The notes beneath the pieces were generated by a model. It searched no databases. It was given only the letters and a program-made list of their open reading frames with translations, and was not told the origin of the DNA. The translations under genes and the position numbers were made by a program. A DNA stretch of 64,000 nucleotides. Source: a virus. Where the stretch lies: positions 1 through 64,000 of the IMG/VR virus record IMGVR_UViG_3300043411_000610; one strand, written 5' to 3'. This document shows, piece by piece, positions 14,781 to 20,058 of this stretch. Position 1 is the stretch's first letter. Each line of letters begins with the position of its first letter.

Positions 14781-14856
14781 CCGCATGTGTCTGAATAGGT
14801 ATAGAGACGACCCGATAAGTCGTAATAAAAAGGTGCAAGTCCTTTCGTGCGGACCA
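14781..14856 (+). tRNA. tRNA-Ile(GAT)
   Basis: CCGCATG/CGTGCGG acceptor, ACGAC-CCGATAA-GTCGT anticodon arm (C at 33), CCA end. Confidence 0.85.
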
Positions 14857-14865
14857 ATTTTTAAT

Positions 14866-14957
14866 GGGTATGAGGCGTAGCGGGAGTATGTGACGCAGGT
14901 GACTGTAAATCATCAACATAAGAACCATAGCAGATTCGAATTCTGCCATACCCACCA
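14866..14957 (+). tRNA. tRNA-Tyr(GTA)
   Basis: GGGTATG/CATACCC, GGTGA-CTGTAAA-TCATC, TTCGAAT T loop, CCA. Confidence 0.92.
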
Positions 14958-15458: not shown

Positions 15459-16484
15459 ATGGCCAAGTGTGAAAATTGTAATGTTGACTTGATAAAAAAT
15501 GAAAAGGGTAAACCTAAGAGGTTTTGTTGTAAAACCTGTAAAGGCAAATATTACCGAGAGTATGGAAGAAAACTTCTAAATTCTGAAGAAATTGATGAAA
15601 TACAGAGATTATATGATACGGGGCTAAGTTTATCACAGATATCCAAAATATCCAAGTATTCAAAAATGTTGTTGTGGAGCCTATCATCTGCAAAGGTTAT
15701 AAAAATAAGAAACCGTGCAGAAGCATCCCGAATATCTAGCACAGGTAAAAAGTTATCACAAGAATCTAAGGATAAAATATCAAAAGCTCGTAAAAAATTC
15801 TTAGAAGAAAATCCAGATAAAGTTCCATATAAATTGAACCATAAATATTTAAAACAATCATTTCCAGAAAAGTATTTTGTTGATTGTTTTGGTGGAAAAT
15901 TTAAACCACAATACCAATTTGGTTCGTATACATTAGATTTTGCGGATATAGAAAATAGACTAGACATTGAAATAGATGGGTGTCAGCATCACTTAGATCC
16001 AAAAATCGTAGAGCACGATATAAAAAGAAATCAATTTTTGAATGAAAATGGGTGGAAGGTATTAAGAATACGGTGGAGCGAATTTAAAAAATCTCAAAAA
16101 GATGAGCAGAAAGAAATAGTAAATACTATTCTTCAAGATAGAATCCCAATTCACCCAGCAATCACCTTTTATCCACATGATTCTTCCATTTCAGATGAAG
16201 CATTCCAACATATTGTGTATAAAAAAGAAAATAAAGTGTGTGATAAATGTGGATTGGTGAACAATAGCAAATATTCAAGTTTTTGTGAAAACTGTATATA
16301 CCAAAACAGGATAAAAATCAAGTGGCCTACAGTCGAGGAAATGACTGAACTTGTTTGGAAAACACCAACAACACAAATAGCAAAAGATATGGGCATATCA
16401 GATAATGCGATAACTAAATTTTGTAGAAAAAATAAAATTGCAAAGCCAGGATGTGGATATTGGCAAAAAATGATTACGAAATAA
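15459..16484 (+). CDS. Putative homing endonuclease (DUF559/Vsr-like nuclease with zinc-finger, NUMOD3-like and HTH segments)
   Basis: YTLDFAD..LDIEIDG..H..DIKRNQFL...GW-x-VLRI-x-W; CxxC pairs; KLSQESKDKISK. Confidence 0.85.
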   Translation: MAKCENCNVDLIKNEKGKPKRFCCKTCKGKYYREYGRKLLNSEEIDEIQRLYDTGLSLSQISKISKYSKMLLWSLSSAKVIKIRNRAEASRISSTGKKLSQESKDKISKARKKFLEENPDKVPYKLNHKYLKQSFPEKYFVDCFGGKFKPQYQFGSYTLDFADIENRLDIEIDGCQHHLDPKIVEHDIKRNQFLNENGWKVLRIRWSEFKKSQKDEQKEIVNTILQDRIPIHPAITFYPHDSSISDEAFQHIVYKKENKVCDKCGLVNNSKYSSFCENCIYQNRIKIKWPTVEEMTELVWKTPTTQIAKDMGISDNAITKFCRKNKIAKPGCGYWQKMITK

Positions 16485-16640: not shown

Positions 16641-16728
16641 TGCAGGATAGTGTAATAGTTAACATATCTGGCTCATAACCAGAAGACGGAAATCGTTTAT
16701 GGTGGTGCAAATCCATCTCCTGCTTCCA
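16641..16728 (+). tRNA. tRNA-Met(CAT), initiator-like 1:72 mismatch, with long variable arm
   Basis: TGCAGGA/TCCTGCT, TCTGG-CTCATAA-CCAGA, AGACG-GAAAT-CGTTT extra arm, CCA. Confidence 0.85.
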
Positions 16729-17040: not shown

Positions 17041-17156
17041 AACGTGATAGTTTAATTAGACCGTAAAATCGGTAATAACATAGAGTGCGCAATCGAAAGT
17101 TATTAGAACGCCGTCGTCCAGATGGAAATATGGTGCAAATCCAATAAACGTTGCCA
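17041..17156 (+). ncRNA. tRNA-like RNA with two extra hairpins inserted in the D loop and a 5-nt anticodon loop
   Basis: AACGT/ACGTT-G-CCA, D stem GTTT/GAAC enclosing ACCG/CGGT and AATAAC/GTTATT, CCGTC-GTCCA-GATGG, TGG-TGCAAAT-CCA. Confidence 0.6.
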
Positions 17157-17283: not shown

Positions 17284-17361
17284 GGATCATAAGCTCAAGT
17301 AGATAGGCGTCTGTCTTCCAAACAGAAAATATAGTCACTGCAAATGTGACATGATCCTCCA
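17284..17361 (+). tRNA. tRNA-Gly(TCC)
   Basis: GGATCAT/ATGATCC-T-CCA, TCTGT-CTTCCAA-ACAGA. Confidence 0.88.
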
Positions 17362-17581: not shown

Positions 17582-17824
17582 ATGAACGCAATAAAAATAA
17601 CAGACTTCGTAAATAAAGACAATCTATGCCATTTTCAATTTTATAGAAAAGGATTGATGTATTATTCTGTAAAGAAGATTCAATCCATTGATCACTATAT
17701 TTTTCCGGTAGAAATTTCGGATTTGGCAGATGCAACGATCAACAATAGTGAGAAAAGTTTGATGATGATGCTATATATTCGCAAGGCAATTGAAGATAAT
17801 ACACTGACTAAATTTGATGAATAA
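17582..17824 (+). CDS. Conserved phage hypothetical protein
   Basis: ORF behind TTGACA promoter at 17548. Confidence 0.7.
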   Translation: MNAIKITDFVNKDNLCHFQFYRKGLMYYSVKKIQSIDHYIFPVEISDLADATINNSEKSLMMMLYIRKAIEDNTLTKFDE

Positions 17825-18437
17825 ACAACAAGTATTGGCCTTGAATCGGTCATTTTATCCAATTGGCATAAAAAATTGGACTAAGGCAATGGTAGATATT
17901 TTCAGTGGTGCGGCCTATCCGGTTGATGTTTATTATGGAACTAAAGAAGATGGTTCGCCAGATTTGGAAAATATTGAGACCTTTAATGTGGTTAAAGATT
18001 GGAAAGAATGGATTGAATTACCAATCAGACCATATGATGAATATGTTAATACTCCATCCAGAACATTTAGAGTTCCACCTGTGGTAGTATGTTCGGCCTT
18101 TGATCGAATTGTTTTTAAAAATGTTCAGTTTCCCACAAAAGCAAATATCTGGAAAAGAGATAAATATATTTGTCAATTTAGTGGTAAAAAGTTGACCAGA
18201 GAGGAGTTATCGGTGGATCATTTGCTTCCTTCATCTAGGGGTGGTAAAAACACATGGGAAAATTTAGTAACATGTGATCGTGCGCTTAACGTATGGAAAG
18301 CAGACAGAACACCTAAAGAATGTGGTTTGAATCTTATAAATAGACCAACAAAACCCACAAACGGAATGGTATTTGATTTTCTGAGAAAGGAATGGGAAAT
18401 TTTCCTTTATGGTGGAAAATCAGAATTTGGTGAATAG
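17814..18437 (+). CDS. HNH endonuclease (McrA-like)
   Basis: VLALN..P, NIWKRDKY-x-CQ, SVDHLLP-x-SRGG..TWENLVT..N..K. Confidence 0.9.
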   Translation: MMNKQQVLALNRSFYPIGIKNWTKAMVDIFSGAAYPVDVYYGTKEDGSPDLENIETFNVVKDWKEWIELPIRPYDEYVNTPSRTFRVPPVVVCSAFDRIVFKNVQFPTKANIWKRDKYICQFSGKKLTREELSVDHLLPSSRGGKNTWENLVTCDRALNVWKADRTPKECGLNLINRPTKPTNGMVFDFLRKEWEIFLYGGKSEFGE

Positions 18438-18445
18438 TTTATTTT

Positions 18446-18514
18446 GCAACAATAGTTTAATGGAAAACACTACAAGTCGTAGGATTCGGGTAATCAAGCC
18501 CTGATTGTTGCACC
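18446..18514 (+). ncRNA. tRNA-like RNA with shortened anticodon arm (4 bp plus 5-nt loop)
   Basis: GCAACAA/TTGTTGC, GTTT-AATGGA-AAAC, CTAC-AAGTC-GTAG, bulged T arm. Confidence 0.6.
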
Positions 18515-19218: not shown

Positions 19219-19290
19219 GCGGTTATCGTATAAAAGTTATTACATCAGATTGTCGATCTGAATATTGGGTTGCAATTACCCATAACCGCG
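19219..19290 (+). tRNA. tRNA-Asp(GTC)
   Basis: GCGGTTA/TAACCGC-G, TCAGA-TTGTCGA-TCTGA. Confidence 0.88.
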
Positions 19291-19300
19291 CATTTTATAT

Positions 19301-19467: not shown

Positions 19468-19543
19468 GTTCCTGTGGTGTAATGGATTAGCATAAATCGC
19501 TTCTAACGATTCGGAAAAAGTTCAAATCTTTTCAGGAATACCA
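19468..19543 (+). tRNA. tRNA-Arg(TCT)
   Basis: GTTCCTG/CAGGAAT, AATCG-CTTCTAA-CGATT, CCA. Confidence 0.92.
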
Positions 19544-19550
19544 ATTTAAT

Positions 19551-19629
19551 GGATGTGTATAACCTCACGCTACGAACGTGTAGAAAGTTTAATAGATACA
19601 TGCGGGTGCAAGTCCTGTCACATTCACCA
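19551..19629 (+). tRNA. Rearranged tRNA-Arg(ACG): no D arm at the normal position
   Basis: GGATGTG/CACATTC-A-CCA, CACG-CTACGAA-CGTG only 8 nt after acceptor strand, 21-nt segment with D-loop-like GTTTAATAGATA 3' of it, intact T arm. Confidence 0.75.
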
Positions 19630-19639
19630 AATTTTCAAT

Positions 19640-19716
19640 GCCCCTATAGCCGAATTGGTATAGGCATATGATTTAGGATCATAAATTTGCAGATTCGAGT
19701 TCTGCTAGGGGCACCA
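19640..19716 (+). tRNA. tRNA-Leu(TAG) with short variable loop
   Basis: GCCCCTA/TAGGGGC, TATGA-TTTAGGA-TCATA, 5-nt variable loop. Confidence 0.92.
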
Positions 19717-19895: not shown

Positions 19896-19971
19896 GTATC
19901 CTTGGGTGAGTGGTTTATTACCTATCGCTGTGACCGACAAAACTTCGGATCGTAACCAAATAAGGGAACCA
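19896..19971 (+). pseudogene. Degenerate second tRNA-His(GTG)
   Basis: TCG-CTGTGAC-CGA anticodon arm, GGT/ACC D stem, mismatched acceptor and T stems. Confidence 0.55.
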
Positions 19972-19981
19972 ATTCAATAAT

Positions 19982-20058
19982 ACACATAGACCGAGCTAGT
20001 GACCGGAACGCACTGCAAATGCGTAAAATGAAGAGTGCGATCCTTATTATGTGTTCCA
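19982..20058 (+). tRNA. tRNA-Cys(GCA)
   Basis: ACACATA/TATGTGT-T-CCA, ACGCA-CTGCAAA-TGCGT; weak T stem. Confidence 0.78.

What the first reader, a model, noticed from the sequence alone, without database searches (positions are those of the whole stretch)
19551..19629. tRNA-Arg(ACG) with rearranged topology: D-loop-like sequence lies 3' of the anticodon arm
Seen: good acceptor stem with ACCA, intact T arm and CT-ACG-AA loop, but only TATAACCT between acceptor and anticodon stem. After the anticodon arm comes TAGAAAGTTTAATAGATACAT, where GTT can pair with AAC and ATA with TAT of the 5' linker, leaving TAATAG as a D-loop-like bulge. Inference: the D domain has been rewired so the anticodon arm is nested within it, giving an L-shape by a different strand path; standard tRNA finders would call it D-armless or pseudo. 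It is the only CGN decoder in the array.
Basis: partly seen in the sequence, partly recalled or inferred. Interest (0 to 1): 0.72.

Follow-up and report, generated by a model that had tools for sequence, protein, structure and literature searches.

The report
Phage arginine tRNA with rewired D-arm
This 79-base phage gene is very probably a working arginine tRNA that has every standard tRNA part, but half of the D-stem and the whole D-loop lie after the anticodon arm instead of before it; many unrelated phages share this non-cloverleaf layout, and gene finders miss or mislabel it.

Summary
Window 19551-19629 (+) is a discrete unit of the phage tRNA array. It has a 7-bp acceptor stem, an encoded ACCA end, a T arm and a CU-ACG-AA loop, but no D hairpin. 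ARAGORN misses it and Rfam tRNA scores it 20.1 bits (cut-off 29).

It is not decayed. I found 25 distinct sequences with the same layout, in uncultured phage contigs, in Streptomyces and Microbacterium phages and in one phage-like MAG contig. Of these, 24 carry an arginine anticodon (ACG, UCG, GCG, UCU or CCU) and one carries GAU.

Covariation supports the acceptor, anticodon and T stems. It also supports a 3-bp D' helix between the 5' linker and the segment after the anticodon arm: AAC/GUU here, and ACC/GGU, GCC/GGC, CGG/CCG, AGA/UCU and others elsewhere.

The unit equals a 76-nt class I tRNA in which positions 10-21 have moved into the variable loop behind an AAA spacer. The moved D-loop keeps A20, the arginine identity base. 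It also follows the local D-loop/T-loop covariation rule (AG with UGC here; GG with UUC in a wastewater relative).

Function as a CGU/CGC/CGA decoder is inferred, not shown. This scan has noted the same class before on other DNA. I found no paper describing it.

The parts
19544..19550 (+). AT-rich spacer (ATTTAAT) after the CCA of tRNA-Arg(TCT); presumed 5' leader removed by RNase P
   Evidence: The same spacer type occurs between all units of the array. Processing is inferred.
19551..19557 (+). Acceptor stem, 5' strand (GGATGTG)
   Evidence: It pairs with 19619-19625 in 7 bp. In the family all 7 pairs change on both sides.
19558..19559 (+). U8, A9
   Evidence: T8 and A9 are invariant in alignment A3.
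19560..19563 (+). D' stem strand A (T-AAC). By connectivity to the anticodon stem it stands for canonical positions 22-25.
   Evidence: 19561-19563 pair with 19587-19589. Covariation in the family: pair types CG/AU/GC/UA, CG/GC/AU/UA and CG/GC/AU.
19564..19564 (+). Junction C (position 26 analogue)
   Evidence: C14 is invariant in alignments A3 and A7.
19565..19581 (+). Anticodon arm: U.U, then CACG/CGTG, with loop CTACGAA. The anticodon ACG is at 19572-19574.
   Evidence: The stem covaries. Of 25 distinct family members, 24 have Arg anticodons.
19582..19586 (+). AGAAA: analogues of positions 44-45 plus a 3-nt spacer
   Evidence: Conserved as WGAAA or AGACA in the family. The part-by-part count of 76 + 3 nt is my own mapping.
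19587..19590 (+). D' stem strand B (GTT-T). By connectivity to the D-loop it stands for canonical positions 10-13.
   Evidence: It pairs with 19561-19563. G37-C13 matches the canonical G10-C25 preference (established knowledge).
19591..19598 (+). Relocated D-loop AATAGATA (A14 A15 U16 A18 G19 A20 U20a A21)
   Evidence: It is identical to the D-loop of the canonical tRNA-Arg(ACG) of kin phage locus L082. It follows the AG-with-UGC rule. An A follows G19 in all 24 Arg members.
19599..19601 (+). CAT: analogues of variable-loop positions 46-48
   Evidence: The segment ends in AT in nearly all members. The A15-U48 pairing is inferred.
19602..19618 (+). T arm GCGGG-TGCAAGT-CCTGT (G at position 55)
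   Evidence: The stem covaries. The UGC T-loop is common in this phage.
19619..19625 (+). Acceptor stem, 3' strand (CACATTC)
19626..19629 (+). Discriminator A73 and encoded CCA
   Evidence: Most neighbouring units in the array also encode CCA.
19630..19639 (+). AT-rich spacer before tRNA-Leu(TAG)

Best explanation
Window 19551-19629 encodes a phage tRNA-Arg(ACG) of a conserved non-cloverleaf class.

Layout. Every part of a 76-nt class I tRNA is present. However, the 5' strand of the D-stem plus the D-loop (canonical positions 10-21) lies inside the variable loop, between positions 45 and 46 and behind an AAA spacer. The 3' strand of the D-stem stays 5' of the anticodon arm. The D-stem therefore forms around the anticodon arm (AAC 19561-19563 with GTT 19587-19589). 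The D-loop motif AAUAGAUA then emerges at the elbow end and can touch the T-loop, so the usual L-shape is kept by a different strand path.

What is shown: the layout, its conservation, the covariation of all four helices, and the D-loop/T-loop co-variation.

What is inferred:
- It is transcribed with the array and cut out at the AT-rich spacers.
- A34 is deaminated to inosine by the host TadA.
- It is charged by the host ArgRS through C35, G36, A20 and A73.
- It reads CGU, CGC and CGA, which make up 49% of the phage's arginine codons.
For: (1) Family. One IMG/VR pattern scan found 10 contigs with the same layout. Covariance-model searches added units in two tail-tube relatives of this phage (L085, L088), in Streptomyces phage Mildred21 (4 units), in Microbacterium phage A3Wally, in Streptomyces phage StarPlatinum and in a phage-like MAG contig. 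BLAST finds the layout in 45 cultured phage records.

(2) Covariation on 25 distinct sequences. 95.2% of cells are paired, all 20 pairs change on both sides, 0 of 500 shuffles reach the observed values, and slid controls reach only 35-47%. The D' helix is 98.6% paired. The unfitted MAFFT alignment gives the same picture.

(3) Leave-one-out model. The window unit scores 74.1 bits, E 3.4e-20.

(4) Anticodons: ACG 12, TCT 5, TCG 4, CCT 2, GCG 1 and GAT 2 rows. All but the GAT rows are arginine. Every Arg member has A after G19 (A20), and the GAT unit has U there.

(5) Elbow. Among 481 distinct tRNAs, a UGC T-loop goes with a D-loop that has AG and no GG in 20 of 21 cases (p = 5.6e-24; 10 of 10 in this phage group). 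The window unit has UGCAAGU with AAUAGAUA. A wastewater relative has UUCGACU with AAUUGGA.

(6) That relative also shows a compensatory T-stem change, C-G to A-U.

(7) Codon use: CGT 20%, CGC 9%, CGA 20% of Arg codons. No other ACG-anticodon tRNA is called in the record, nor in the fetched part of 8 of the carrier arrays.

(8) PMC11551756 shows that E. coli HisRS, EF-Tu and the ribosome accept a tRNA without a D-arm.
Against: - There are no expression, end-mapping, modification or charging data. No RNA holder was available.
- The single-sequence fold is not better than shuffles (z = -0.22).
- Nearest-neighbour energies slightly disfavour the D' helix in this AT-rich member (-13.4 against -15.0 kcal/mol).
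- The 27-43 position is U.U, so the anticodon stem has only 4 standard pairs.
- G55 in the T-loop is unusual.
- The three-dimensional argument rests on textbook tRNA geometry and was not modelled.
- A3Wally carries a canonical Arg(ACG) beside the rewired one, so the rewired form is not always needed for decoding.
Confidence: 0.8

Rival explanations
1. It is a decaying pseudo-tRNA. On this view a tRNA-Arg(ACG) lost its D-arm by deletion, gained junk in the variable region and is no longer used.
For: ARAGORN and Rfam (at its cut-off) reject it. The fold z-score is -0.22. The same array holds several other irregular tRNA-like units.
Against: The same layout is kept in 25 distinct sequences from unrelated phages, with compensatory changes in all four helices. 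The 'junk' carries a conserved D-loop motif with A20. Acceptor stem, CCA and spacing are intact. The unit is identical in two further metagenomes and conserved with compensated changes in a third.
Confidence: 0.04
2. It is a tRNA-shaped RNA that is made but does not decode. It could be a decoy or sponge for a host tRNA-targeting nuclease, for ArgRS or for a modification enzyme, or a regulatory RNA.
For: A3Wally has a canonical Arg(ACG) 400 nt from the rewired one. A phage-like contig carries only two tRNA genes in the 8 kb fetched, and both are rewired Arg. Phage tRNAs are known to counter tRNA-cleaving defences (PMC10264068 and PMC11555353, abstracts only).
Against: The family covers five different arginine anticodons with perfect 7-nt loops (U33, purine 37), keeps A20 and the discriminator, and fills the missing ACG slot in the large arrays. 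This is what a decoder needs. A decoy for one enzyme would not need all of it.
Confidence: 0.12
3. It is a truly D-armless tRNA of the mitochondrial tRNA-Ser(AGY) type, with an unstructured long variable region or a variable-arm hairpin (GTGTA 19578-19582 with TACAT 19597-19601) standing in for the D-arm.
For: The minimum-energy fold uses that hairpin. GTGT...AATAGATA resembles the D-arm of the L082 tRNA-Arg.
Against: The hairpin clashes with the anticodon stem. It is paired in only 48.9% of cells in the family, with no covariation, and has probability 0.01 once the acceptor and T arms are fixed. The linker and variable-region segments do pair with each other, with covariation. The D-stem is therefore present, not lost.
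Confidence: 0.03

Closest known systems
Canonical class I bacterial and phage tRNA-Arg(ACG) (Rfam RF00005). Examples are the ordinary-order gene at L082:6082-6169 in a tail-tube relative of this phage, and E. coli tRNA-Arg(ICG).
   Same: 7-bp acceptor stem, 5-bp T arm, CUACGAA anticodon loop, U8 and A9, a D-loop with G19-A20-N-A21, A73 and CCA. The D-loop of the L082 gene is identical (AATAGATA). Part for part, the total is 76 nt plus a 3-nt spacer.
   Different: Positions 10-21 lie 3' of the anticodon arm, inside the variable loop, so there is no D hairpin and no cloverleaf. RF00005 scores it 20.1 bits, below the 29-bit cut-off.
D-arm-lacking mitochondrial tRNAs, such as metazoan mt-tRNA-Ser(AGY) (reviews PMC7609411 and PMC4013460)
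   Same: A short connector lies between the acceptor and anticodon stems. There is no D hairpin, and tRNA finders tuned to cloverleaves struggle.
   Different: In the mitochondrial tRNAs the D-stem and D-loop are gone and the elbow contact is lost. Here both are kept, with covariation, and only their order along the chain differs. ARAGORN's mitochondrial modes do not call the unit either.
Circularly permuted tRNA genes of Cyanidioschyzon merolae and relatives (PMC3978253)
   Same: The order of tRNA segments in the gene departs from the textbook order.
   Different: In those genes the 3' half precedes the 5' half, and a circular intermediate restores a normal tRNA. Here the acceptor strands are in normal order and the change is a swap of two internal segments, not a cyclic permutation. 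No processing step could restore a cloverleaf.
Engineered 'mini HisT' D-arm-less tRNA used by E. coli (PMC11551756)
   Same: It is a non-cloverleaf tRNA accepted by a bacterial synthetase, EF-Tu and the ribosome. This shows that such molecules can work in bacteria.
   Different: It is man-made and truly lacks the D-arm. That paper's abstract states that all known bacterial tRNAs are cloverleaves.

Membership tests
Canonical tRNA (Rfam RF00005 / cloverleaf) | Score at or above the family's gathering threshold (29 bits) | tested here: not met
   20.1 bits. There was no hit at E<=10 in the 5.5-kb search.
Canonical tRNA (Rfam RF00005 / cloverleaf) | D hairpin between positions 9 and 26 | tested here: not met
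   Only 8 nt lie between the acceptor and the anticodon stem. Infernal deletes 15 model positions there.
Canonical tRNA (Rfam RF00005 / cloverleaf) | 7-bp acceptor stem, 5-bp T stem with a 7-nt loop, and an anticodon stem with a 7-nt loop carrying U33 and purine 37 | tested here: met
   All three stems covary. The 27-43 pair is U.U.
tRNA-Arg identity (bacterial ArgRS set: C35, G36/U36, A20, A/G73) | C35, G36 and A73 present | tested here: met
   Loop CU-ACG-AA and discriminator A.
tRNA-Arg identity (bacterial ArgRS set: C35, G36/U36, A20, A/G73) | A20 in the D-loop | tested here: met
   An A follows G19 in the relocated motif, here and in all 24 Arg-anticodon members. The GAT-anticodon unit has U. 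Whether it sits where ArgRS expects it was not tested.
tRNA-Arg identity (bacterial ArgRS set: C35, G36/U36, A20, A/G73) | Aminoacylation with arginine | not testable with these tools
   Needs a charging assay. No ArgRS gene (PF00750) is in the 65%-complete record, so the host enzyme would be used.
Rewired-D-arm phage tRNA class (defined here by models R1 and R2) | Match to a covariance model built without the window sequence | tested here: met
   74.1 bits, E 3.4e-20. Ordinary tRNAs of the window score at most 26.7.
Rewired-D-arm phage tRNA class (defined here by models R1 and R2) | 3-bp helix between linker positions 11-13 and positions 37-39, 3' of the anticodon arm, kept by compensatory changes | tested here: met
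   The window has AAC/GTT. At least 11 different complementary pairs of triplets occur in the family.
Rewired-D-arm phage tRNA class (defined here by models R1 and R2) | A D-loop motif (U-AA-Y-(U)-R-G-A...) directly 3' of that helix, ending in AU before the T stem | tested here: met
D-arm-lacking mitochondrial-type tRNA | D-stem and D-loop absent | tested here: not met
   Both are present in a different order.
Circularly permuted tRNA gene | The 3' half is encoded upstream of the 5' half, and the order is a cyclic permutation | tested here: not met
   The acceptor 5' and 3' strands are in normal order. The segment order (acceptor, anticodon arm, D, T) is not cyclic.
Class II (long variable arm) tRNA | A self-paired hairpin in the variable region | tested here: not met
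   The only candidate hairpin (28-32 with 47-51) is paired in 48.9% of cells, with no covariation.

The most novel reading that the evidence does not exclude
The rewired layout is an adaptation rather than a tolerated accident. On this reading, arginine (and some isoleucine) tRNAs of phages are threaded differently so that a host factor which reads the canonical D-arm or variable-loop surface (a tRNA-cleaving defence nuclease, a modification enzyme or a decay pathway) no longer recognises them. ArgRS, EF-Tu and the ribosome would still accept them. This would explain three things: phages carry the rewired form next to canonical copies, it travels with homing endonucleases, and it appears confined to phages.
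Probability: 0.2. Interest if true: 0.92.

Novelty: new variant of a known kind. Interest (0 to 1): 0.8.

Why it matters
The cloverleaf is treated as universal for tRNAs used by bacterial ribosomes; PMC11551756 says so explicitly. A conserved, covarying natural class that keeps all parts but strings two core segments in swapped order would be a counter-example. It would also show that the L-shape, not the cloverleaf, is what selection keeps.

There is a practical consequence. Standard finders miss or mislabel these genes. In Streptomyces phage Mildred21 one is filed as tRNA-Phe(gaa), one as tRNA-OTHER and two are not annotated. Phage tRNA inventories and codon-supply analyses are therefore biased for arginine.

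The class offers a natural scaffold for asking which tRNA contacts ArgRS, TadA, RNase P, EF-Tu, the ribosome and tRNA-targeting defence nucleases really need.

The window's member adds one specific piece of evidence. Its moved D-loop and its T-loop carry the rarer AG/UGC partner set, while a close relative carries GG/UUC. This points to a preserved elbow contact.

Tried and rejected
Searches for close relatives:
- Megablast and blastn of the array against cultured phages gave nothing useful for this unit.
- Three exact or semi-exact IMG/VR patterns taken from the window or the X7 contig found nothing. The same degenerate pattern found nothing in JGI metagenomes.
- The flanking 283-aa protein has no IMG/VR relatives.
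- The tail tube protein has only 24-35% relatives in IMG/VR and none in GTDB genomes.

Sequencing runs:
- No RNA holder was listed, so nothing can be said on expression.
- In read laying the seven differences of the X7 contig within 19547-19593 were not listed, so its D' pairs could not be read.

Structures rejected:
- The variable-arm hairpin 28-32 with 47-51.
- A minus-strand tRNA reading. By eye, 8 nt would lie between its T arm and acceptor, and T would stand at loop position 58.

Other:
- ARAGORN mitochondrial modes found nothing.
- There is no ArgRS gene in the record.
- Ten literature searches and look-ups found no description of the layout. This is a limited library and not proof of absence.

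Full report
**1. What is in the sequence**

Window 19551-19629 (+) lies in a phage tRNA array that runs from about 14.6 to 20.2 kb. The window belongs to an IMG/VR record of 90,677 bp with about 35% G+C. It is a distant T4-like myovirus, judged by its tail tube protein.

ARAGORN calls tRNA-Arg(TCT) at 19468-19543 and tRNA-Leu(TAG) at 19640-19716. Between them is a 96-nt gap, whereas neighbouring spacers are 7-11 nt. The 79 nt at 19551-19629 fill that gap and leave spacers of 7 and 10 nt.

The unit reads as follows:
- acceptor GGATGTG/CACATTC
- linker TATAACCT
- hairpin CACG-CTACGAA-CGTG
- 21 nt, TAGAAAGTTTAATAGATACAT
- T arm GCGGG-TGCAAGT-CCTGT
- discriminator A, then CCA

ARAGORN does not call it in any mode. 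Rfam's tRNA model aligns it end to end at 20.1 bits against a cut-off of 29, deleting the D arm and inserting 17 nt in the variable region. The single-sequence fold is no better than shuffled sequence (z = -0.22).

**2. Finding relatives**

Public runs helped. Two other metagenomes hold the unit unchanged. A wastewater run (X7) holds a 281-nt contig that matches 19547-19593 without gaps but with 7 differences, and then continues TGGACACAT-GAGGG-TTCGACT-CCTTC-CGGG. The odd layout therefore exists in a diverged relative. That relative has a canonical UUC T-loop, GG in the D-loop-like stretch, and a compensated T-stem pair (C-G here, A-U there).

A tail-tube relative at 49% identity (L082) has a syntenic array. 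Its tRNA-Arg(ACG) is in normal order, its D-loop AATAGATA is the very 8-mer found after the anticodon arm in the window, and its 17-nt variable region starts AGACAG.

I then used a pattern joining the anticodon loop, AGAMAG and a T-loop. It gave ten IMG/VR contigs of 26-149 kb with the same layout as the window.

**3. The family and its structure**

I aligned the window unit with 8 distinct IMG/VR units using MAFFT (A3). Counting pairs on that unfitted alignment gave:
- All 7 acceptor pairs have changes on both sides.
- The linker/post-anticodon helix (element 11-13 with 37-39) has pair types AU 4, GC 2 and CG 1; then CG 7 and AU 1; then CG 9.
- 91% of all cells are paired, against 27-52% when the partners are slid.
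- 0 of 500 shuffles reach the observed values.

A covariance model of this structure (R1) scores ordinary tRNAs at 33 bits or less. It scores further units at 40-102 bits. These lie in:
- the same contigs;
- two tail-tube relatives of this phage (L085 and L088);
- Streptomyces phage Mildred21 (four units), Microbacterium phage A3Wally and Streptomyces phage StarPlatinum;
- a phage-like contig binned in a MAG (L139, two units in tandem).

On 25 distinct sequences the D' helix is 98.6% paired, and all three of its pairs change on both sides. At least eleven complementary triplet pairs occur, among them AAC/GTT, ACC/GGT, GCC/GGC, CCC/GGG, CGG/CCG, CCG/CGG, AGG/CCT, AGA/TCT, CTC/GAG and CGA/TCG. 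That alignment was fitted to the model, which favours the structure, but the MAFFT alignment agrees with it.

A model built without the window's sequence (R2) scores the window unit at 74.1 bits, E 3.4e-20.

Two other proposed helices fail:
- The hairpin GTGTA/TACAT used by the minimum-energy fold: 48.9% of cells paired, no covariation, probability 0.01.

**4. What it is**

The loop triplets are ACG (12 rows), TCT (5), TCG (4), CCT (2), GCG (1) and GAT (2 identical rows). Five different arginine anticodons in one structural family show that the hairpin is an anticodon arm and that the family is tRNA-Arg, with one isoleucine-type offshoot.

The motif after the D' helix reads U-AA-Y-(U)-G-G-A in most members. 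This is a normal D-loop from A14 to A20. All 24 Arg-anticodon members have A after G19, which is the A20 identity base of bacterial ArgRS (established knowledge). The GAT unit has U there.

Counting parts in the window unit gives 7 + 2 + 4 + 1 + 17 + 2 + 3 + 4 + 8 + 3 + 17 + 7 + 1 + 3 = 79. That is a complete 76-nt class I tRNA plus an AAA spacer, with positions 10-21 cut out and set between positions 45 and 46.

By connectivity, the linker strand (which runs into the anticodon stem) stands for positions 22-25. The strand before the D-loop stands for positions 10-13. In line with this, the pair next to the anticodon stem is mostly G(10')-C(25'), and the outermost position is usually a U.U mismatch. 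In ordinary tRNAs G10-C25 is conserved and 13-22 is often irregular (established knowledge).

In the textbook tRNA structure, 45 contacts the 10-25 pair, 9 contacts 12-23, 46 contacts 13-22, and 21 sits with 8-14. Each new covalent joint (9 to 22', 45 to 10', 21' to 46) therefore links bases that are already neighbours. This is my inference from textbook geometry. No three-dimensional model was made.

**5. The elbow**

In this phage and its kin many tRNAs have a UGC T-loop instead of UUC. Across 481 distinct ARAGORN-called tRNAs from all loci held, UGC goes with a D-loop that has AG and lacks GG in 20 of 21 cases. All other T-loops go with GG in 442 of 460 cases (p = 5.6e-24). In the window phage and its tail-tube kin the count is 10 of 10.

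The window unit has UGCAAGU together with AAUAGAUA. Its X7 relative has UUCGACU together with AAUUGGA. The moved D-loop therefore changes together with the T-loop, just as ordinary D-loops do. This is the best evidence available here that it still makes the elbow contact.

**6. Likely function**

Arginine codons in 62 long ORFs are CGT 20%, CGC 9%, CGA 20%, CGG 7.5%, AGA 33% and AGG 11%. An inosine-34 tRNA-Arg would read the first three, which is 49% of the total.

No other ACG-anticodon tRNA is called in the record. None is called in the fetched part of eight carrier arrays either, some of which hold 16-23 tRNAs. The record, which is 65% complete, has no ArgRS gene, so the host enzyme would charge the tRNA.

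PMC11551756 shows that E. coli HisRS, EF-Tu and the ribosome accept a D-arm-less tRNA.

I therefore take the unit to be a working CGU/CGC/CGA decoder, with confidence 0.8. Transcription, processing, I34 formation and charging are inferred.

A non-decoding decoy role cannot be excluded. A3Wally has a canonical Arg(ACG) 400 nt upstream of the rewired one, and the 8 kb fetched from L139 carry only two tRNA genes, both rewired Arg.

**7. Known or new**

Rewired units in public records are handled as follows:
- In the cultured phages BLAST reports 'no annotated feature' under the match in all listed rows.
- In Mildred21 one unit is filed as tRNA-Phe(gaa) although its loop reads CU-UCG-AA. One is filed as tRNA-OTHER, and two are unannotated.
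- ARAGORN calls none of them, and Rfam's cut-off passes none in the eight loci tested.

A pattern for the ACG form found one hit among one genome each of 185,579 prokaryote species. That hit lies on a contig with homing endonuclease and phage-type peptidase genes. The pattern is narrow, so 'phage-only' is a lead and not a result.

Reviews of non-canonical tRNAs list D-arm loss only in mitochondria (PMC7609411; PMC4013460). Searches of the held library found no description of this layout.

After reaching these conclusions I looked at the scan's earlier notes. The same class has been reported many times on other DNA since October 2026, for Arg and Ile, with the same reading. One note adds that a later check of the claim elsewhere found that 'part of it fell', without saying which part. 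I therefore keep 'phage-only', 'undescribed' and 'working tRNA' marked as limited or inferred.

**8. Verdict**

- The unit is a new member of a non-cloverleaf phage tRNA class that is a new variant of a known kind of molecule.
- This member adds the AU-rich D' stem of an AT-rich phage, and an AG/UGC elbow pair that supports the D-loop/T-loop contact.

Noticed in passing
window 16641-16728, 17284-17358, 19219-19291, 14781-14853; L082, L086, L088 tRNAs: Many tRNAs of this phage group have a T-loop starting UGC (G at position 55). Their D-loops then have AG instead of GG. Over 481 distinct tRNAs this holds in 20 of 21 cases (p = 5.6e-24). It looks like an A18/G55 replacement of the G18/pseudouridine-55 elbow contact.
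   Followed up: partly
window 14781-14853, 14866-14954, 17284-17358, 18446-18512, about 17041-17156, about 19896-19970, about 19981-20058: Further tRNA-sized units with acceptor stems and CCA ends that ARAGORN does not call. Rfam passes four of them. By eye they include an Ile(GAT)-like unit, a Tyr(GTA) with a long variable region, a Trp(CCA), a 67-nt unit with an odd anticodon arm, and a Cys(GCA)-loop unit with an irregular D region. None matches the rewired-Arg model above 27 bits.
   Followed up: partly
L138 (Streptomyces phage Mildred21 MF155946.1) record 91367-91442, 86379-86453, 94857-94936, 73703-73782: The gene annotated tRNA-Phe(gaa) is a rewired unit whose loop reads CU-UCG-AA (Arg). 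The gene annotated tRNA-OTHER is a rewired Arg(TCT). A rewired Arg(ACG) and a rewired GAT-anticodon unit are not annotated.
   Followed up: yes
L126/L129 (Streptomyces phage StarPlatinum MH576965.1 75276-75355) and L131 (Mildred21 73703-73782): A rewired unit with anticodon GAT (isoleucine type) and U instead of A at position 20. In StarPlatinum it lies outside the tRNA array, directly after a gene annotated as nucleotidyltransferase. These actinophage units do not encode CCA.
   Followed up: partly
L125 (A3Wally record 93240-93602), L138 (Mildred21 record 90931-91365), L139:2650-3372: Homing endonuclease genes sit next to rewired tRNA genes. An HNH gene ends 2-7 nt upstream of the unit in two cultured phages, and a GIY-YIG gene lies near the tandem pair in L139. 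This hints that the genes spread as mobile cassettes.
   Followed up: no
L127:1024-1098 and 1501-1580 (Microbacterium phage A3Wally): A canonical tRNA-Arg(ACG) and a rewired tRNA-Arg(ACG) lie about 400 nt apart in one phage, so the two forms can coexist.
   Followed up: no
L082:6082-6169, L096:5768-5855, L109:10918-11005 (-): Normal-order tRNA-Arg(ACG) genes with a 17-18-nt variable region that starts AGACAG, as the rewired units start AGAAAG or AGACAG. They may be duplication intermediates or revertants on the way between the two layouts.
   Followed up: no
L116:5521-5849 (-), L115:4669-5016 (+): One carrier contig encodes a bacterial-type RNase P RNA (146.8 bits). Another encodes a tmRNA (112.3 bits).
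   Followed up: no
L139 (RXKA01000111.1, 'MAG: Proteobacteria bacterium AWTP1-29'): This 16-kb contig of a bacterial MAG carries two rewired Arg tRNAs plus homing endonuclease and phage-type peptidase genes. It is probably a phage contig binned by mistake.
   Followed up: partly
window 15459-16484 and 17814-18437: Two HNH endonuclease genes interrupt the tRNA array (PHROG matches 2.8e-12 and 5.5e-23).
   Followed up: no
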